From an uncultured Candidatus Bathyarchaeia archaeon (GTDB taxonomy: Archaea > Thermoproteota > Bathyarchaeia > Bathyarchaeales > Bathycorpusculaceae): DNA of 11,453 nt. Under the pieces are notes generated by a model. That model ran no database searches, was not told the origin of the DNA, and was given only the letters and a program-made list of their open reading frames with translations. The stretch covers positions 1 to 11,453 of the forward strand of contig CAYVGZ010000048.1 of NCBI GenBank assembly GCA_964450845.1, written 5' to 3'. The position numbers and the translations under genes were made by a program. This document shows, in pieces, positions 1 through 7,695 of the stretch. Position 1 is the first letter of the stretch, and every line of letters starts with the position of its first letter.

Positions 1-85
1 TGGAGGAAACGAAGCCACAATCCCCTCGCTTAAGGCTAAATTTGGACTCTTCGGTTCTGAACCCGAATGGATCTGGGTCCAGTTA

Positions 86-160
86 TGGGGCTGCCCGGAT
101 TTGAACCGGGGTCACGAGCGCCCGAGGCTCATAGCCTAGACCAAGCTAGCCGACAGCCCC
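86..160 (-). tRNA. tRNA-Pro(CGG), intronless, CCA not encoded
   Basis: Reverse complement folds as GGGGCTG/CAGCCCC acceptor stem, D arm GGCT-AGCTTGGTCTA-GGCT, anticodon arm TGAGC-CT[CGG]GC-GCTCG, T arm CCCGG-TTCAAAT-CCGGG, discriminator A at 86. Confidence 0.95.
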
Positions 161-267
161 ACGGCGTTAACTCTCCATTCCAATATCATAGAAGATAAGT
201 GTTCCCTAACACCTTTAAACTCTTACTTCTAAAATAATATCTTCACAGAGGGGAGGCTAGAATAGGT
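161..267. promoter_or_regulatory. Divergent promoter region for tRNA-Pro (-) and the NrdD-like gene (+)
   Basis: AT-rich spacer with TTTAAA at 214-219, a CTTATC box on the minus strand near 194-199, inverted repeat GTGTT-ccct-AACAC at 199-212, and RBS-like GAGGGGAGG at 248-256 ahead of TTG 268. Confidence 0.45.
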
Positions 268-2457
268 TTGTCGGTTCCACATCGTATGCGCGGGGTCAGA
301 ATACTTAAGGCAGTTTCTTCACCCCTTAGGCTGCAGATTTTGAACTTACTTTTTGACAGAGGCTCTCTTTCTTACACGGAGTTGATGGGTTCGCTGAAGA
401 TGAATCCTAGCAGGGATGCTGGAAGATTTGCCTATCACTTAAAGTTTCTGCTTAAGACGGATCTGATCGAGGCAGATGTTGAAACAAAGAAATATTGCCT
501 TACCGAGTTGGGCAAGGTTGTCATTGATGTGGCAGAAAGAATTGAAAAAAACGCCTTTAAACCAAAAGGAATGCTTGTCCGCACTTCCCGATTTGCACCA
601 GAAGAATTTGACGCAAACAAGATTGCAAATTCCCTCATAAAAGAGACGAAAATGCCTGCAGAGTTAGCTCGAAAGGTGGCTAAAGAAGCAGAAAAATGGT
701 TGCTTAAATCAAAAACGAAATATTTGACAGCCCCCCTCGTCAGAGAAGTTGCAAATGCAATTTTAATCGAGCAAGGTTTAGAGGAATACCGCCATAAACT
801 TACGCGTTTGGGTCTTCCAGTCTACGACGTAACTGCTCTTATTGATACAAAAAGTAAAACTTCTGAAGGGTCAGCCTCCATACACGAAACCGCTGGAGAA
901 ACAGTTCTTAAAGAATACACTCTTTTGAACGTCTTTCCAAGAGACATTGCAGATGCACACTTGTCAGGTTCGTTGCACATTCATGGTTTAAGCTCTTGGA
1001 TTTTGAAGCCAAGCGAAATAATGCATGACTTAAGATTTTTCTTCCAAAACGGCTTAAACCTAGAGAAAATAAACGCTCTTCAGCCTTCCTATTCTCCACC
1101 CCAAAACTTAGAGTCCGCTTTATCCATAGCATTTAATGTTCTCTTACATTCTGTCAAAGAAGTAGATGAAACGCAAACAATTGACTACTTCAACGTTTTT
1201 CTTGCACCGTTTATAAAAGGCATGGATTCCTCAGAGATTAAAGAGGCTCTACGCTTATTCATTGCCAACATAAATCAACATGTAAACACTTCTTTAGGCT
1301 TAGAGCTTACAATCCCAGACTTCATAGCAGATAAGCCAGCTTTTGGACCTTTCGGAGAACATGCAGGCAAATACGCAGATTTCCTTGAAGAAAACCAAAT
1401 CTTAGCATCGCTTATTTTCGAGATATTTGCCGAAGAAAGCGCACGAAAACCAATGTTTAATCCAAAAATCATTTTAAAAATCCGCTCGGAAACATTTGCT
1501 GATGAGAAAGCAAAGGCAATGCTTCTGAAAGCACATCAGTTGGCATCAGAGAAAGGCATGCTGTACTTTGCTAATCTGTTAGAAAAAGACCAAAAGTATT
1601 CTGTTTTCTCAAGTTCTGGATTTAGACTTAAAGCAGATTTGAATGGAGACTGGGAAATCGATACGTTACGCACGGGCTGTTTAGGATATGTAACGATTAA
1701 CTTACCACGGATTGCATATGAATCTGGCAAGGACAAGACAAAGTTTTTTGAAATCTTAAGAGAAAGACTTGAGATGGCAACTCGTGCTTTAGAAATTAAG
1801 GACAGAATACTAAAACAGCACGGCAAAGGTTTACTGCCATTTCTAATGCAAAGCGTTAATGGCGACCACTACTTTAGACTTGAAAATTGTTCTCGTATAA
1901 TAAACTTGGCAGGTTTAAAAGAAGCTTCAGAGGCATTCAGCGAAAAAAAATTGGAGTTTGCTGACGAAACAATGCAAAACATTCTGGCTTACATTCAGAA
2001 AATCCGCAGAAAACGTAGAAAACGTCTATCCACAGCCACACTGCTAGACTTTGAAGCTTTAGAAAGACTAGTGCAGTTAGACATTGAAAGATATGGCATC
2101 GCCAAAGTTCGATTTTCGGGGACAAGGGAAAAACCATTTTACTCAACAATCAGCAAGCTAATTCTTCAAGATGGCAAAATTTCTCCAGAGTCTTCAATAT
2201 TTGAACGGAAGATGCGTGGACTACATGGTGGGAACCTAACGGTAATAGACCTCGGAGAAGCTGAACATAAAACAGATGAGCTTATGTCCTTAACTAAACA
2301 GGTTTTTGAAATTCATAACATGGAATTTCTAACATATAACCGCAAATCGACCTACTGTGTCAACTGCAGAAGAAGCTGGTTTGGATTATTACACAAATGT
2401 CCTTCATGCGGGTCAACAGGCACTTTGACGACCTTTGATCGATTTGCATTAACATAA
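268..2457 (+). CDS. ArsR-type winged-HTH / ATP-cone / anaerobic ribonucleoside-triphosphate reductase (NrdD)-like fusion; predicted catalytically inactive
   Basis: aa ~8-92 wHTH (SSPLRLQILNLL..LSYTELM..GRFAYHLKFL..KKYCLTELGK); aa ~102-175 ATP-cone (VRTS..EEFDANKI..LTAPLVRE..GLEEYR); NrdD landmarks HLSG-LHIH, HDLRFF, FNVFLAP, GDWEIDTLRTG, VTINLPRIAY, HGG..LGE and C-terminal CxxC-x10-CPSCG. The RxxGY glycyl motif and catalytic Cys residues are absent. TTG start with RBS; ATG 286 is an alternative start. Confidence 0.88.
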   Translation: MSVPHRMRGVRILKAVSSPLRLQILNLLFDRGSLSYTELMGSLKMNPSRDAGRFAYHLKFLLKTDLIEADVETKKYCLTELGKVVIDVAERIEKNAFKPKGMLVRTSRFAPEEFDANKIANSLIKETKMPAELARKVAKEAEKWLLKSKTKYLTAPLVREVANAILIEQGLEEYRHKLTRLGLPVYDVTALIDTKSKTSEGSASIHETAGETVLKEYTLLNVFPRDIADAHLSGSLHIHGLSSWILKPSEIMHDLRFFFQNGLNLEKINALQPSYSPPQNLESALSIAFNVLLHSVKEVDETQTIDYFNVFLAPFIKGMDSSEIKEALRLFIANINQHVNTSLGLELTIPDFIADKPAFGPFGEHAGKYADFLEENQILASLIFEIFAEESARKPMFNPKIILKIRSETFADEKAKAMLLKAHQLASEKGMLYFANLLEKDQKYSVFSSSGFRLKADLNGDWEIDTLRTGCLGYVTINLPRIAYESGKDKTKFFEILRERLEMATRALEIKDRILKQHGKGLLPFLMQSVNGDHYFRLENCSRIINLAGLKEASEAFSEKKLEFADETMQNILAYIQKIRRKRRKRLSTATLLDFEALERLVQLDIERYGIAKVRFSGTREKPFYSTISKLILQDGKISPESSIFERKMRGLHGGNLTVIDLGEAEHKTDELMSLTKQVFEIHNMEFLTYNRKSTYCVNCRRSWFGLLHKCPSCGSTGTLTTFDRFALT

Positions 2458-2479
2458 GCGTTAAAGAGGAAGTAAAATG

Positions 2480-3537
<1,058 letters not shown>

Positions 3538-4002
3538 ATGAGTGAAACTGAGTTGTATGTTTCCAAAATTAAGGATGGCACGGTTATTGATCATATTACT
3601 GGCGGACACGCGTTAGACATTGCCAAAATTTTGGGGATAACTGGGCGGGAGAAAAGAGTCATTACGATTGCAATCAATGTGCCTAGTAAACGCTTCAAGA
3701 TGAAGGATATAGTTAAGATTGAGGGGAGAGAGTTAAACCCACAAGAAGTGCATAAAATTGCCTTGCTTGCTCCCCATGCAACAATTAACATTATCCGCGA
3801 TTATAGGGTTACAGAAAAGCAGAGGGTTCAGCTTCCAAAAATCATTGAAAACATTGTCAAGTGTGCTAATCCCGCTTGCATAAGCAACAGCAATGAGCCA
3901 GTGCAAGCCAAATTTTATGTTGAAGGCGAGGAACCGCTACTGCTGAAGTGCCATTACTGCGGTCATATTATGGAGAAAAAAGATGTGCTTGAGCAGTTTT
4001 AG
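3538..4002 (+). CDS. pyrI: Aspartate carbamoyltransferase regulatory subunit
   Basis: VSKIKDGTVIDHI N-terminus, KDIVKIE, APHATINII, and four Zn ligands (KCANPACISN, KCHYCG). Confidence 0.97.
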   Translation: MSETELYVSKIKDGTVIDHITGGHALDIAKILGITGREKRVITIAINVPSKRFKMKDIVKIEGRELNPQEVHKIALLAPHATINIIRDYRVTEKQRVQLPKIIENIVKCANPACISNSNEPVQAKFYVEGEEPLLLKCHYCGHIMEKKDVLEQF

Positions 4003-4485: not shown

Positions 4486-5916
4486 CTAGGTAATGCTGCG
4501 CATATTTTCTCTGATGTCGCCTATTCGGCTTAGGTTGTTTAATACAATTTGCTTTCGATAGGAGCTTTTCACAGTTCTTGCTATTTGTTCTATTAAGAAG
4601 TTTGGTCGACGGATAAAATGATAAAAGGCTTCATGAATCATGTGCTTGATTTCGTTAAGCGGCACCGCAGTTGGACATATCTCGGAAACTGCGACGCCTG
4701 TTTCCCAATATTCCCCTCCTTTTAGAAGCCCCTTAGCCTCGAATTCATTCCAGATGTCGTTTCCAGGATAAACACCCAATATGTTAAATTGTGGGAAATC
4801 TATCGGAATTTGTTTTGCAAATTCGATTGTATTCTGAGTTTCTTCTCTGGTCTCGTCTGGAGCGCCTACAATAAAAGACCCAACCACAACGTCTATTCCA
4901 GCCTTTCTGGCTGTTTTTACGGCAGTTTTAGACTGTTGGGGTGTTGTCTGTTTATTGTAGTAGTTTAGGATTCTTTGGTTGGCGCTTTCGATGCCAAAGT
5001 AAAGGATTCTGCAGCCTGCTCTGGCAATTTCCCGCAGCATTTCATAGGAGCAATTGTCAACTCTTCCCTCGCAGATCCAGTCCATATCTATTTTTTCCTT
5101 TCTCATTTCTCTGCAAAGCTTGATTACTCTTTTTTGGTTCAGCGTAAAGCTGTCATCTATAAAAATGAACTGTTCATATCCCTCACTAGCGAGAAAATGT
5201 AACTCGTCCAGAGTGTTTTGAATAGATCTTGGTCTCCACATGCCACGAGCGAACTGTCGACAACTGCAAAATCGACATCTGTAAACGCATCCACGCGAAG
5301 AAACTATGCTTGTGAATTTTTTCGGCGCCACATTAGCTCCAGCAATAATGGAATGATATTCATCGTCAATTAGCTCACGGTCTGGAAAAGGAAGCGAATC
5401 CAAATCCCTTATTAGGGGTTGATCAGGAGTGGAAACCATATTTTCTCCGTTTTTGAAAGTAACTCCTCGAACTTTTTTGAGACTGCCTTTGTTTCTCAAG
5501 CAACTTACAAGTTCGATGACTGTGTTTTCTCCTTCTCCTCGAACAATGATATCAACGGAAGGGTATTTCCTCAGAATTCGTTCCGGGTTGAATGTTGCAT
5601 AATAGTTGCCAAACACCGTGATGACATTTGGGTTTTTTTCTTTCACCTTCTTACTGATTAATGCGGCTGTGCGACCAGAACTCGCGAAGGTTGAGAAACC
5701 AAGAATGTCAGGATTTTCTTTCTCTACCCAATTAACTGTTTCTTCAATTGTGAAACTTTTTGCTGGCTGATCTAGAACAGAAACTTCTATCCCTCTTTCC
5801 TGAAGCACCGCACCCAAATACAAAATGCCCAAAGGCGGCCACGAAGCAATACTTTTTCTTCTTTCACGTTCATCTAAGCCTTCATTGGGACTAGCATTGA
5901 TGACAGAGAATTTCAT
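4486..5916 (-). CDS. Cobalamin-binding-domain radical SAM protein (class B methyltransferase-like)
   Basis: PPLGILYLGAVL and DILGFS B12-binding-type N-terminus; SSRGCVYRCRFC (CxxxCxxC); FIDDSF; YFGIESANQRIL; SFIVGAPDET. Likely start is ATG 5916 (MKFSVINASP); the ORF track extends to 5961. Confidence 0.9.
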   Translation of the reverse strand: MKFSVINASPNEGLDERERRKSIASWPPLGILYLGAVLQERGIEVSVLDQPAKSFTIEETVNWVEKENPDILGFSTFASSGRTAALISKKVKEKNPNVITVFGNYYATFNPERILRKYPSVDIIVRGEGENTVIELVSCLRNKGSLKKVRGVTFKNGENMVSTPDQPLIRDLDSLPFPDRELIDDEYHSIIAGANVAPKKFTSIVSSRGCVYRCRFCSCRQFARGMWRPRSIQNTLDELHFLASEGYEQFIFIDDSFTLNQKRVIKLCREMRKEKIDMDWICEGRVDNCSYEMLREIARAGCRILYFGIESANQRILNYYNKQTTPQQSKTAVKTARKAGIDVVVGSFIVGAPDETREETQNTIEFAKQIPIDFPQFNILGVYPGNDIWNEFEAKGLLKGGEYWETGVAVSEICPTAVPLNEIKHMIHEAFYHFIRRPNFLIEQIARTVKSSYRKQIVLNNLSRIGDIRENMRSIT

Positions 5917-5956
5917 TTCTAACACTTCAACAACTTCACGTTTATTATTCTCATTA

Positions 5957-5969
5957 CACATAAACTTTT
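5957..5969 (-). promoter_or_regulatory. Candidate BRE/TATA for the radical SAM gene
   Basis: Minus strand AAAAGTTTATGTG about 40 nt upstream of ATG 5916. Confidence 0.4.
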
Positions 5970-6020
5970 ACGCAAATCTGTATGCGCTACATCAAGGAAG
6001 TGTATTCCAGAAAATGCTTT

Positions 6021-6125
6021 TGGCGCCGCCGATAGGACTTTCAACAAGAGGTGTGCCTCCTTGTTCTTGAACCTATGACCGACTGGTTAACAGCCAGCCG
6101 CTCTACCTAGCTGAGCTACGGCGGC
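6021..6125 (-). tRNA. tRNA-Asn(GTT) with encoded CCA and a 28-nt intron at position 59/60 (T-loop)
   Basis: GCCGCCG/CGGCGGC acceptor stem, GCTC/GAGC D stem, GCTGG-CT[GTT]AA-CCAGT anticodon arm, T stem ATAGG/CCTAT. Removing 6038-6065 restores loop TTCAAGT and a 77-nt tRNA ending GCCA. Confidence 0.95.
6038..6065 (-). other. tRNA intron with strict bulge-helix-bulge motif
   Basis: Intron AACAAGGAGGCACACCTCTTGTTGAAAG. Exon helix ATAGG/CCTAT, central 4-bp helix TTCA/TGAA, 3-nt bulges AG|A and AG|T, intron helix ACAAG(G)AGG/CCTCTTGT. Confidence 0.9.
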
Positions 6126-6164
6126 TACTGCTTAAAGCATTATGAGTTTTGAGGATTGCGGTGG

Positions 6165-6175
6165 TATTTAAGTTT
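6165..6175 (-). promoter_or_regulatory. Candidate TATA box for tRNA-Asn
   Basis: Minus strand AAACTTAAATA about 40 nt upstream of G1 (6125), directly after the stop of the upstream radical SAM gene. Confidence 0.5.
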
Positions 6176-6177
6176 AG

Positions 6178-7695
6178 TTATCTGTAGCTTTTTATTGGAA
6201 TTCCAGCTTTTTCCGCTTTATACTTGGCAATTCTTGCGAAAATTTTATAGAAAGATTGTAAGATGTTTGCATACCATTTTCCAGCAACGGATAAGTCAAT
6301 TAGTTTTTCTACCCAGTGGAAGTCATGTTCTGCACATTTAATCAGCAATTCCTTGTGCAACTCGCTCATTTGTGCTTCTTTAAACCACTGCTCGTCCTTT
6401 AATCTGCCCATAGGAACAAAAAACAAAGGCACAATTAGACTTCTAACATCTTTAAGGTCATCCATCAGCTCTATCGTCTTGATAACGTCATCTTCTGTTT
6501 CTTCTGGAGCCCCAACAATCAATGTGCCTGCAGGAACTAGCTTGTTATCGTGCATTAAACCCATGCCAGTGCGAACGACTTCTGGCCACTGTTCCGGCTT
6601 AAAGGGATGAGCTTTTGCAGGCATAACTTTCTTGGCAAGGTCTGGCGAACCTGTTTCTATTCCAATTTCGGCGCCCCACCAAGGCTGCTTTTGCAGTATG
6701 ATTTCAGATATTTTTGAAAAGAGTTTTGGTTTTGACGCTACGGCTGCTAGTGAGCAGTGACTCCAGCAGATGCTTTCACATTTCTTTGCAACTAATTCAT
6801 GAAGTTTGACGAGCTTTTCATCGTTCGGCAACGTATTTTTAGAGCCGTAGAGCATAATGTCTTCTGCGTGGAGACATGACCAATTTATGTTTCCAACCTT
6901 TAAGTTTACATCTATTTCCCGCAGTATTTTCTCATAGGGATACCAACGCAACGATCTCAAAGTCACGCTGCAAAATTTACATCCCCGACAACATCCGCGA
7001 CCAACTTCCACTAAGCCATTGACAGAGGGTCTCACAATATCGGGTATCTCCTCCACACTTGGAGCCTCTTTAACGTCAACCTCGTAGTATTGAGGAAGAG
7101 CTTCACCGTTAAGAGCAGCCCGAGCGATTTTCCCAATGACCTTCTCAGCCTCTCCTTCAACTATACAGTCTATCCCATATTCCTCAACAAACTTTGGCCT
7201 ATAACGAAACTGCCAAACACCTGGACCGCCAACAATAATCCTTAACCCACTTTTCTTCGCTTTTCTAATTTCCAGACTGTCCAGCAGAGCACGGAAATAT
7301 TGTGCAAGAAATGGCTCCTTTTTTAGAATGGAGGCTAAGGTGCTTGAGGCTGGGCCTAAGCCAAAGGGGTCCATTACATGTATGCCTAGAACCTTTACTT
7401 TGTTCACACACTTTCCAAGATGGTTTGGTGCAACAGTTGACACGTCGAAGCCTTCGCTCAAAAGTTGAGCCTCAATTTTTCTTAACCCATACGGTGCCGC
7501 CACAGGCATACCCTTCAAAGTTTTTATGGGCGGAAAGAAAAGCCATTTGTAAAGCCAGTCTGGAACAAAATTTGGGGGGGCACACGTTCCAAACCCTAAA
7601 AATTCATTGCGATGGTAATCACTCATCAAAGTTTGGTCAGCAGTTAGGAGTATTTTGTCACCTGCTGATTCTTGTAGCAAATCATCGGCTTCCAT
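6178..7695 (-). CDS. Archaeal radical SAM protein with B12-binding-like N-terminal domain, function unknown
   Basis: EVGRGCCRGCKFC (CxxxCxxC), IIVGGPG, APYGLRKIEAQL, GIETGSP, GTLIVGAPEETEDD; N-terminal LLTADQTLMSDY. Confidence 0.88.
   Translation of the reverse strand: MEADDLLQESAGDKILLTADQTLMSDYHRNEFLGFGTCAPPNFVPDWLYKWLFFPPIKTLKGMPVAAPYGLRKIEAQLLSEGFDVSTVAPNHLGKCVNKVKVLGIHVMDPFGLGPASSTLASILKKEPFLAQYFRALLDSLEIRKAKKSGLRIIVGGPGVWQFRYRPKFVEEYGIDCIVEGEAEKVIGKIARAALNGEALPQYYEVDVKEAPSVEEIPDIVRPSVNGLVEVGRGCCRGCKFCSVTLRSLRWYPYEKILREIDVNLKVGNINWSCLHAEDIMLYGSKNTLPNDEKLVKLHELVAKKCESICWSHCSLAAVASKPKLFSKISEIILQKQPWWGAEIGIETGSPDLAKKVMPAKAHPFKPEQWPEVVRTGMGLMHDNKLVPAGTLIVGAPEETEDDVIKTIELMDDLKDVRSLIVPLFFVPMGRLKDEQWFKEAQMSELHKELLIKCAEHDFHWVEKLIDLSVAGKWYANILQSFYKIFARIAKYKAEKAGIPIKSYR

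What the first reader, a model, noticed from the sequence alone, without database searches (positions are those of the whole stretch)
2356..2457. The NrdD-like protein has lost its glycyl-radical site but kept the Zn ribbon
Seen: C697-x2-C700...C711-x2-C714 is intact, then LTTFDRFALT-stop. Established: class III RNRs have R-x-x-G-Y (e.g. DRITGY; Gly580 in T4 NrdD) at this position, and the Gly radical is indispensable. Here the Arg (R725, nt 2440) is retained, the Gly position is Leu728, and the protein ends one residue later. The other two + frames contain no GY, and the convergent pyrB stop is only 22 bp away, so a simple frameshift error does not rescue the motif. Inference: it cannot be activated by NrdG; the Zn ribbon is kept for a structural or new role. 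No nrdG-like activase is present in the window.
Basis: partly seen in the sequence, partly recalled or inferred. Interest (0 to 1): 0.8.

Follow-up and report, generated by a model that had tools for sequence, protein, structure and literature searches.

The report
Dead anaerobic reductase turned DNA-binding regulator
This archaeal gene encodes a copy of the anaerobic DNA-precursor enzyme that has lost its radical glycine tail and both catalytic cysteines but gained a DNA-binding head, so it is most likely an undescribed nucleotide-sensing gene regulator that databases mislabel as an active enzyme.

Summary
ORF 268-2457 (729 aa) keeps the Zn ribbon (C697, C700, C711, C714) and ends 15 residues later as TLTTFDRFALT-stop. 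R725 remains and Leu728 sits where the radical Gly belongs. It is not an error or a decaying gene: over 100 orthologues (69-92% identity) end the same way, and dN/dS is 0.09-0.16.

The loss goes beyond the glycine. The thiyl-loop CC is now GF, the beta1 Cys is Glu250, and the NxN flap and HxHD motif are degraded. Among 72 diverse wHTH-fused relatives none keeps all three radical residues. Deeper branches keep a full-length tail with Ala, Ser or Thr at the Gly position, and this lineage truncated it.

The fold is still a class III RNR (AF2 pLDDT 90; Z 33 to NrdD structures). The chain stops at the tip of the former Gly loop.

The genome has a separate working nrdR-nrdD-nrdG operon. The fused proteins form one clade. 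In other lineages the gene lies directly upstream of an active nrdD or a class II RNR gene.

Best reading (0.6): a nucleotide-sensing transcription regulator, analogous to NrdR. No operator was found and no paper describes it.

This scan has flagged the same family in at least 26 other genomes.

The parts
268..2457 (+). Gene for the wHTH + ATP-cone + dead NrdD protein (729 aa, TTG start)
   Evidence: ORF list and translation. Orthologues start at the same codon with ATG, GTG or TTG behind a GGAGG-like site. dN/dS is 0.09-0.16 against orthologues.
203..220 (+). Conserved BRE/TATA-like promoter element (GTTCCCTAAC + CTTTAAAC)
   Evidence: Upstream regions of about 75 orthologous loci all carry (C/T)TAA(C/G)-TTTAAAC 45-60 bp before the start. 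The promoter function is inferred.
304..528 (+). ArsR-like winged helix-turn-helix (aa 13-87)
   Evidence: Pfam DUF7347 28.0 bits (cut-off 27.6) and HTH_5 23.5 bits (cut-off 22). L28, H57, Y76 and G82 are invariant, and the helix DAG(K/R)FAYHL is about 90% conserved.
577..789 (+). ATP-cone (aa 104-174) of the 'VRTS' subtype, followed by the conserved linker TRLGLPVYDV
   Evidence: Pfam ATP-cone 25.8 bits, exactly at the cut-off. It is the best-conserved part of the family: R105, F114, I119, L123, E126, R159, L166, R175, R180, G182 and P184 are invariant. Active neighbouring NrdDs in other lineages have the same cone type.
874..2343 (+). Class III RNR alpha/beta-barrel body (aa 203-692), catalytically dead
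   Evidence: Pfam NRDD 224.6 bits. AF2 pLDDT 90.2. VIA-align Z 31-33, rmsd 2.5-2.7 A over about 500 residues to the P. copri, T. maritima and T4 NrdD structures.
1015..1017 (+). Glu250 at the position of the beta1 catalytic Cys
   Evidence: BLASTP against the genome's own NrdD aligns GPYCVGWD with KPSEIMHD. None of 72 fused representatives has Cys here.
1618..1623 (+). Gly451-Phe452 at the position of the thiyl-radical Cys-Cys of the finger loop
   Evidence: SMCCRL aligns with SSGFRL. Two of 72 fused representatives have a Cys in these columns, against 9 of 9 canonical NrdDs.
1699..1701 (+). Asn478 of the INLPR motif, retained and invariant
   Evidence: Invariant in alignment A1. The motif is shared with canonical NrdD.
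2356..2409 (+). Zn ribbon C697-x2-C700 ... C711-x2-C714
   Evidence: Sequence. All four Cys are invariant in 68 family members.
2410..2457 (+). 15-residue remnant of the glycyl-radical loop (GSTGTLTTFDRFALT) plus the stop codon; R725 kept, Leu728 at the Gly position
   Evidence: The tail motif TL.xFDRFA is conserved in orthologues. The model's C-terminus superposes on the Gly tip of solved NrdDs.
2458..2479 (.). 22-bp spacer between the convergent stop codons
2480..3451 (-). pyrB (aspartate carbamoyltransferase catalytic chain), tail to tail with the gene
   Evidence: Pfam OTCace_N and OTCace. This arrangement is kept in 77 of 78 related loci that include downstream DNA.
3538..4002 (+). pyrI, divergent from pyrB
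   Evidence: Pfam PyrI and PyrI_C.
85..161 (-). tRNA-Pro (CGG) directly upstream, syntenic in close relatives
   Evidence: ARAGORN. The tRNA's 5' end is visible upstream of the gene in many loci.

Best explanation
The gene encodes a pseudoenzyme. It is a paralogue of an archaeal class III ribonucleotide reductase that keeps the ATP-cone, the barrel fold and the Zn ribbon. It has lost the glycyl-radical loop (cut off at its tip), both catalytic cysteines and the substrate-covering flap, and it carries an N-terminal ArsR-type winged helix. That it cannot reduce nucleotides and is under purifying selection is shown. That it acts as a nucleotide-sensing transcription regulator of deoxynucleotide/nucleotide synthesis genes is inferred. 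In that model the ATP-cone, and possibly the former effector or substrate pockets of the dead barrel, bind (d)NTPs. Binding would change oligomeric state or conformation, and this would set how the wHTH binds promoters. This is the logic of bacterial NrdR, built from different parts. In this lineage the working nrdD has moved to a separate nrdR-nrdD-nrdG operon, so the regulator's present targets in this genome are unknown.
For: Dead enzyme:
- The Gly, thiyl Cys and beta1 Cys are all replaced.
- HxHD is HIHG here and is not conserved in the family. The NxN flap region (aa 193-208) is variable (the roles of these motifs are taken from PMC11226230).
- The protein scores below the TIGR02487 cut-off.

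Functional gene:
- The tail is identical or near-identical in more than 100 orthologues.
- dN/dS is 0.09-0.16 overall, 0.04-0.13 for the wHTH and 0.06-0.15 for the cone.
- The AF2 model is confident (pLDDT 90.2, pTM 0.82) and has an NrdD fold (Z 33).

Regulator:
- The wHTH passes the Pfam cut-offs.
- The wHTH and the cone are the most conserved regions.
- The cone is of the same VRTS type as in the active NrdDs encoded next door in sister lineages.

Link to RNR:
- In deep Bathyarchaeia the gene lies directly upstream, on the same strand, of an active nrdD (SQCCRL, SRITGYY), sometimes followed by nrdG (L091-096, L098, L099).
- In two other families, one of them probably ammonia oxidisers, it lies directly upstream of a class II RNR gene (L102, L103, L110-115).
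- Five complete genomes of that second group have no other NRDD-family gene and no NrdR.

Single origin:
- All 64 fused sequences form one clade, with 100* support on full-length sequences and 99* with wHTH and tail removed.
Against: No DNA-binding site was identified. A TGTCAA...TTGA element upstream of the RNR TATA box in two lineages is not found at the gene's own promoter. Nor is it found at the nrdR-nrdD-nrdG promoter or in the pyrB-pyrI spacer of this family. Genome-wide palindromes of that type are mostly inside genes.

In this genome the gene is not next to any RNR gene, and a canonical NrdR with NrdR-box-like palindromes already sits on the nrdD operon.

The two basic residues of the classical cone motif (KR in VxKRDG) are Thr-Ser here, so ATP/dATP binding is assumed, not shown. 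Gene neighbourhood is circumstantial evidence, and no experiment exists.
Confidence: 0.6

Rival explanations
1. It is a protein-level regulator or scaffold. The dead subunit would bind the active RNR (for example as a heterodimer with NrdD) or PyrB and modulate it directly. The wHTH would serve protein contacts or tethering rather than promoter control.
For: NrdD works as a dimer, and the barrel that forms the dimer is kept. The genome has an active NrdD. The adjacency to pyrB is extremely stable (77 of 78 loci).
Against: Five complete genomes carry the fused gene but no other NRDD-family gene, so an NrdD partner cannot be the general role. The wHTH recognition helix is about 90% conserved, as in DNA-binding ArsR-type domains. 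The pyrB adjacency is explained by ancestry: the older gene order is fused gene, nrdD, (nrdG), then convergent pyrB.
Confidence: 0.15
2. It regulates pyrimidine synthesis genes (pyrB/pyrI) rather than RNR genes in this lineage.
For: The tail-to-tail pyrB neighbour is kept even where pyrI, the radical-SAM genes and the POR genes have moved away. pyrB/pyrI also flank the cluster in deeper lineages.
Against: Convergent genes share no promoter. The pyrB-pyrI spacer shows no conserved operator-like element beyond the promoter boxes. The TGTCAA/CGTCAA pair at 3454-3470 is limited to the two closest relatives.
Confidence: 0.1
3. It is still an enzyme. It would use either non-radical chemistry in the old barrel, or a radical supplied in trans, or a radical on a non-glycine residue as in the aminoacyl radical enzymes.
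For: Several barrel residues stay invariant or nearly so: D229, H231, G234, N478, R481, E552, R600, D605 and Y625. Deeper relatives have Ala, Ser or Thr at the Gly position, and such residues can carry radicals in PFL-type enzymes (PMC11528403).
Against: The thiyl Cys needed by every RNR and glycyl-radical enzyme is absent here and in 70 of 72 relatives. The beta1 Cys is absent in all 72. Here the chain ends at the loop tip, so no radical residue is left. The conserved barrel residues are the same ones conserved in active NrdDs, which fits fold or ligand binding. The family also occurs in probable aerobic ammonia oxidisers.
Confidence: 0.04
4. It is a sequencing or assembly artefact, or a recently broken nrdD pseudogene.
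For: The protein ends just where the essential motif should begin. A few relatives carry an in-frame stop (G061, G288, G324).
Against: The same end occurs in more than 100 independent assemblies. There is no GY in the other frames. Selection is strongly purifying on every domain, including the Zn ribbon plus tail. The structure model is confident.
Confidence: 0.01

Closest known systems
Class III (anaerobic, glycyl-radical) ribonucleotide reductase NrdD (PF13597, TIGR02487; structures 1H7A, 4COI, 8P2S)
   Same: It shares the ATP-cone, the ten-stranded barrel fold (Z 33), the INLPR Asn, the C-terminal Zn ribbon, and a common ancestry with archaeal NrdDs that have a VRTS-type cone.
   Different: It has no radical Gly, no thiyl Cys, no beta1 Cys, and degraded HxHD and NxN flap motifs. 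It carries an extra N-terminal wHTH. It scores below the equivalog cut-off and is not paired with nrdG.
NrdR, the bacterial RNR-specific repressor (Zn ribbon + ATP-cone; TIGR00244; PMC9110341, PMC12176259)
   Same: Both join a DNA-binding module to an ATP-cone, and both are often encoded beside RNR genes. The proposed logic is the same: the nucleotide state of the cone sets DNA binding.
   Different: DNA binding would be by a wHTH, not an N-terminal Zn ribbon. A whole dead RNR body of about 500 residues lies behind the cone. The protein is not homologous to NrdR outside the cone. This genome also has a true NrdR, so the two are not simple substitutes here.
ArsR/SmtB-type winged-helix regulators with a fused sensor domain
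   Same: The N-terminal wHTH passes the HTH_5 and DUF7347 cut-offs. The architecture is that of a one-component regulator.
   Different: The sensor is a former radical enzyme, not a metal site or a small ligand domain. No metal-sensing motif was examined.
Aminoacyl radical enzymes (PFL-family enzymes with Ala/Ser/Thr in place of the radical Gly; PMC11528403)
   Same: Deeper family members have Ala, Ser or Thr at the Gly position inside a full-length glycyl-radical domain.
   Different: Those enzymes keep the catalytic Cys and an activase. This family lacks the Cys, and this protein lacks the residue altogether.

Membership tests
Class III RNR NrdD (active enzyme) | C-terminal glycyl-radical motif RxxG(Y) after the Zn ribbon | tested here: not met
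   The tail is DRFALT-stop with Leu728 at the Gly position. All 9 canonical sequences in the same alignment have R..GY.
Class III RNR NrdD (active enzyme) | Thiyl-radical Cys at the tip of the finger loop | tested here: not met
   The CC of SMCCRL aligns with G451-F452.
Class III RNR NrdD (active enzyme) | Second catalytic Cys on the first barrel strand | tested here: not met
   The Cys aligns with Glu250. None of 72 family members has it.
Class III RNR NrdD (active enzyme) | Substrate triphosphate motif HxHD and the NxN flap | tested here: not met
   The motif is HIHG here. The second His and the Asp are not conserved in the family, and the flap region (aa 193-208) is variable. The roles of these motifs are taken from PMC11226230.
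Class III RNR NrdD (active enzyme) | Ten-stranded alpha/beta barrel of the RNR/glycyl-radical enzyme fold | tested here: met
   The AF2 model matches 8P2S, 4U3E and 1H7B with Z 32-33 and rmsd 2.5-2.7 A over 464-509 residues.
Class III RNR NrdD (active enzyme) | C-terminal Zn site (four Cys) | tested here: met
   C697, C700, C711 and C714 are invariant.
Class III RNR NrdD (active enzyme) | Score above the curated equivalog cut-off (TIGR02487) | tested here: not met
   The score is 240 bits against a cut-off of 326.35. The genome's other NrdD matches PF13597 over the whole profile at 657 bits.
Class III RNR NrdD (active enzyme) | Radical formation by NrdG and NTP reduction | not testable with these tools
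   This needs EPR and an activity assay.
NrdR | N-terminal NrdR-type Zn ribbon followed by an ATP-cone | tested here: not met
   There is no Zn_ribbon_NrdR or TIGR00244 hit. The N-terminus is a wHTH. The genome's true NrdR (P0123) does have both domains.
NrdR | ATP/dATP-dependent binding to boxes at RNR promoters | not testable with these tools
   Only the neighbourhood next to RNR genes in other lineages was seen.
ArsR-type wHTH regulators | Winged helix-turn-helix domain passing the family cut-offs | tested here: met
   HTH_5 scores 23.5 (cut-off 22) and DUF7347 scores 28.0 (cut-off 27.6). The AF2 secondary structure for aa 3-96 is helices, then two strands, then a helix.
ArsR-type wHTH regulators | Sequence-specific DNA binding | tested here: inconclusive
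   No conserved operator could be defined.
ATP-cone domains | Pfam PF03477 match and nucleotide-binding residues | tested here: inconclusive
   The score is 25.8 bits, exactly at the cut-off. The KR of the roof motif is TS here, while the Tyr and Arg residues of the last helix (Y174, R175, R180) are kept. Active neighbouring NrdDs have the same subtype.
Aminoacyl radical enzymes | Ala/Ser/Thr at the radical position plus a catalytic Cys and an activase | tested here: not met
   The chain ends at the loop tip and there is no thiyl Cys.

The most novel reading that the evidence does not exclude
The family is the main transcriptional controller of DNA-precursor synthesis in Thermoproteota-type archaea, taking the role NrdR has in bacteria. 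It would use a complete but dead ribonucleotide reductase as its sensor. That would let it read the ATP/dATP ratio at the cone and also dNTP balance at the former specificity or substrate pockets. The remnant of the glycyl-radical domain, whose order and disorder is cone-controlled in active NrdD (PMC11226230), would serve as part of the signal relay to the DNA-binding head.
Probability: 0.35. Interest if true: 0.85.

Novelty: new variant of a known kind. Interest (0 to 1): 0.7.

Why it matters
NrdR, the known RNR gene regulator, is rare in archaea (PMC9110341), and how most archaea control dNTP synthesis genes is open. This family is large: 1842 cluster representatives match the query, although that count includes canonical NrdDs. 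About 130 of 401 sampled genomes of the phylum carry a wHTH-containing match. All five of the probable ammonia-oxidiser genomes examined carry it as their only NRDD-family gene.

It would be a clear case of a radical enzyme recycled whole into a ligand-sensing module. It also offers a graded natural series of glycyl-radical-domain decay: Gly to Ala, Ser or Thr, and then truncation.

In practice, annotation pipelines name these genes 'anaerobic ribonucleoside-triphosphate reductase'. That wrongly assigns class III RNR, and an anaerobic trait, to genomes such as those of ammonia oxidisers.

Tried and rejected
1. Frameshift or read-through rescue of RxxGY: the other frames and the downstream sequence hold no GY.

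2. Assembly error or pseudogene: rejected by conservation and dN/dS.

3. Operator search.
- TGTCAA...TTGA elements lie 45-60 bp upstream of the nrdD or nrdJ TATA box in deep Bathyarchaeia and in the ammonia-oxidiser-like family.
- They are absent upstream of the regulator gene itself in those loci.
- They are not conserved at the nrdR operon promoter or in the pyrB-pyrI spacer.
- The window genome has five TGTCAA-N0-8-TTGACA palindromes against about 1.5 expected by my own estimate. Four lie inside ORFs. The one intergenic site (C14:725) precedes small ORFs with no family.
- The result is inconclusive.

4. GTGTT-N4-AACAC upstream of the gene's TATA box: the right arm is not conserved, so it is more likely BRE plus flank.

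5. Literature: six full-text searches and five papers read. None describes a wHTH-fused or radical-less NrdD family. This covers open-access text only.

6. Rfam scan of the conserved nrdR leader: nothing.

Contexts of distant members came from the genome search and the fetch from genomes instead.

8. Mapping of the allosteric specificity site: not possible at residue level with these tools, so left open.
Full report
**Observation.**
- The + strand ORF 268-2457 encodes 729 aa. Its last 34 residues are CVNCRRSWFGLLHKCPSCGSTGTLTTFDRFALT, followed by TAA.
- The four Zn-ribbon cysteines are residues 697, 700, 711 and 714. R725 is the codon at nt 2440. Leu728 lies three residues after R725, and the chain ends at 729.
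- Neither alternative frame contains GY. The convergent pyrB stop is 22 bp away.
- Pfam's NRDD model matches only profile positions 10-534 of 562. The NCBIfam NrdD equivalog scores 240 bits against a cut-off of 326.

**Not an artefact.**
- A search of 5.8 billion proteins returned 2362 relatives. All listed homologues of 69-92% identity end with the same short tail (TL.xFDRFA..) or an even shorter one. All come from Bathyarchaeia metagenomes and MAGs.
- The 7-residue length difference from the 736-aa orthologues is an internal in-frame indel at residue 558.
- Pairwise dN/dS against nine orthologues is 0.09-0.16 overall. It is 0.04-0.13 for the wHTH, 0.06-0.15 for the ATP-cone, 0.09-0.18 for the barrel and 0.09-0.33 for the Zn ribbon plus tail, wherever dS is not saturated.
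- The gene is therefore maintained by selection in its truncated form.

**More than the glycine is gone.**
- The same genome holds a canonical operon on contig C15. It comprises NrdR (Zn_ribbon_NrdR plus ATP-cone), NrdD (708 aa, with MCCRL and SRVVGY) and NrdG (TIGR02495, 185 bits).
- Aligned with that NrdD (25% identity), the window protein has G451-F452 in place of the finger-loop Cys-Cys. It has Glu250 in place of the beta1 Cys.
- The substrate triphosphate motif HxHD is HIHG. The region of the NxN flap is variable in the family. The TPAE and YTNS blocks of active NrdDs are absent (the roles of these elements are from PMC11226230).
- What is kept is the fold-defining set: ADAH..G, INLPR with invariant Asn478, GL.E, R..LD...Y, GG and the Zn ribbon.

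**Structure.**
- AlphaFold2 with a 68-sequence alignment gives pLDDT 90.2 and pTM 0.82.
- Foldseek and VIA-align place the model with class III RNRs from P. copri, T. maritima, S. thermophilus and phage T4. Z is 30-33 and rmsd 2.5-2.7 A over 460-510 residues. Class I and II RNRs and PFL-type enzymes follow at Z about 19-21.
- The last model residue, 729, aligns with T4 residue 581/582, T. maritima 622/623 and P. copri 712/714. This is one or two residues past the radical Gly (Gly580 in T4, Gly711 in P. copri).
- The tail therefore follows the ingoing arm of the former Gly loop and stops at its tip. It also suggests the remnant still plugs the barrel (inference).

**Family-wide pattern.**
- A profile-free search of 1.84 billion cluster representatives found 1842 hits.
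- Among 72 representatives that carry the wHTH, none has the beta1 Cys. Two have a Cys in the thiyl columns. Eleven have Gly in the radical column, and only P0174 (RRLGY) and P0150 (RAEGY) look like the motif. No member has all three radical residues.
- All nine canonical NrdDs in the same alignment have R, G, Y, Cys and [GC]C.
- Tail lengths after the last Zn Cys are bimodal. One group has 37-51 residues, a full glycyl-radical domain with Ala, Ser, Thr or Asn at the Gly position (for example YSRSLAKYLPL...). The other has 7-23 residues and is truncated.
- In the tree, the window protein sits in a small truncated group whose neighbours have long tails. The ammonia-oxidiser-like clade is truncated separately. 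The decay therefore went from point substitution to truncation, more than once.
- The 64 fused sequences form one clade. Support is 100* SH-like on full-length sequences and 99* after removing the wHTH and tail from most rows. These are FastTree trees, with the genome's own divergent NrdD as outgroup.
- The clade is nested among archaeal NrdDs. Its sister is a wHTH-less gene (L097) that has already lost the finger loop and has Ala at the Gly position.

**What the conserved parts say.**
- The most conserved segments of the family are the wHTH recognition region (DAG(K/R)FAYHL) and the ATP-cone with its linker (VRTS...EEFD..KI...YLTAPLIRE..NAIL.E.G.EEYRH.LTRLGLPVYDV). Eleven invariant residues lie in the cone and linker, and only two in the barrel outside the Zn site.
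- The classical KR of the cone roof is TS. However, the same VRTS cone and linker occur in the active NrdDs encoded beside the fused gene in other lineages. This looks like a functional cone subtype, not a decayed one (inference).

**Genomic context.**
- In 77 of 78 Bathyarchaeia loci with downstream sequence, the gene is tail to tail with pyrB. This holds even where pyrI, the B12-radical-SAM genes and the POR genes have moved.
- Deeper lineages explain this. There the order is fused gene, then an active nrdD (SQCCRL, SRITGYY), sometimes nrdG, then convergent pyrB and divergent pyrI (L091-096, L098, L099).
- In this family the working nrdD has left for the nrdR operon, and the regulator gene was left beside pyrB. 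NrdR was found in 29 of 30 sampled genomes of the family.
- In two further families the fused gene lies directly upstream of a class II RNR gene with Ribonuc_red_lgC and an ATP-cone (L102, L103, L110-115). Relatives of one of these families are named Nitrososphaerales.
- Five complete genomes of that family have no other NRDD-family gene and no NrdR.
- In the phylum sample of 401 genomes, about 130 of the 150 listed matches begin within the first 18 residues, so they include the wHTH.

**Mechanism.**
- Shown: the protein cannot carry out glycyl-radical chemistry. It is conserved and well folded. It unites a DNA-binding-type domain with a nucleotide-binding-type domain. Its gene is recurrently placed at RNR genes of two different classes.
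- Inferred: it is a transcription regulator whose DNA binding depends on nucleotides bound to the cone, and perhaps to the old effector or substrate sites. The likely route is changes in oligomeric state, as in NrdR (PMC9110341) and in NrdD itself (PMC11226230).
- Open: I could not define an operator, and the targets in this genome are unknown (see the operator search under tried and rejected). I put 0.6 on the regulator model and about 0.95 on 'conserved pseudoenzyme'.

**Comparison with known systems.**
- It is not a member of active NrdD, because four defining catalytic features were tested and not met.
- It is not NrdR, because it lacks the NrdR Zn ribbon.
- It is not an aminoacyl radical enzyme, because it has no Cys and no radical residue.
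- It works most like NrdR in concept.
- I found no description of the family in six full-text searches and five papers read. Sources label members either 'anaerobic ribonucleoside-triphosphate reductase' or 'ArsR family transcriptional regulator'.

**Earlier work of this scan.**
- Look-ups made after I had fixed my reading show the same family flagged in at least 26 other genomes, with the same interpretation. Those are unchecked AI notes, not independent evidence.
- New in this report: the structural placement of the chain end at the Gly tip; the substitution-then-truncation series; the shared VRTS cone with active neighbours; and the explanation of the pyrB adjacency as a relic of a regulator-nrdD-pyrB cluster.

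Noticed in passing
L131:1966-2270 (minus strand; own genome contig C15, upstream of nrdR): About 200 nt upstream of the nrdR-nrdD-nrdG operon are conserved across roughly 20 genomes of the family. The stretch holds a distal BRE/TATA-like box, several conserved blocks with short hairpins, a proximal TATA box and two NrdR-box-like palindromes (ACTCTACATTTAGCGT, AACACTAA). It could be a long leader, a small RNA or extra operators. Rfam found nothing.
   Followed up: partly
L097:4176-6101 (minus strand): This is a wHTH-less NrdD-like gene next to a fused one. Its finger loop is deleted and the NxN flap is lost. It has SRSIAFY in place of SRITGYY but keeps the beta1 Cys. It is sister to the whole fused clade, so it may be an intermediate stage of enzyme death.
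   Followed up: partly
L091-L096 (nrdD genes next to the fused gene): Active archaeal NrdDs here start their ATP-cone with VRTS instead of the usual KRDG-type roof motif. They share the linker TRLGLPV.DV with the dead paralogue. I did not find this cone subtype discussed in the papers read.
   Followed up: partly
proteins P0172, P0173, P0182, P0187, P0212, P0218, P0228: These canonical NrdD relatives are 1146-1707 aa long and match in 2-4 separate stretches, so they probably contain inteins.
   Followed up: no
window 6021-6125: Another first-reader note places an intron-bearing tRNA-Asn here. ARAGORN with default settings reports only tRNA-Pro (85-161) in the window.
   Followed up: no
window 2480-3537: pyrB and pyrI are transcribed divergently rather than as one operon. 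Orthologues align to pyrB only from residue 19-20, so the true pyrB start is probably downstream of the TTG at 3451.
   Followed up: no
window 4486-7695: Two adjacent B12-binding radical-SAM genes (491 and 505 aa) lie on the minus strand between pyrI and the four POR subunit genes. Their substrate is unknown.
   Followed up: no
genomes G061, G288, G324: The fused gene carries one in-frame TAA in these genomes. This may be occasional real pseudogenisation or assembly error.
   Followed up: no
L092-L096, L099 and L110-L115 (regulator-RNR intergenic regions): TGTCAA followed by TTGA at a 2-5 bp distance lies 45-60 bp upstream of the RNR gene's TATA box in two distant lineages. It is a candidate binding site but is not confirmed elsewhere.
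   Followed up: partly
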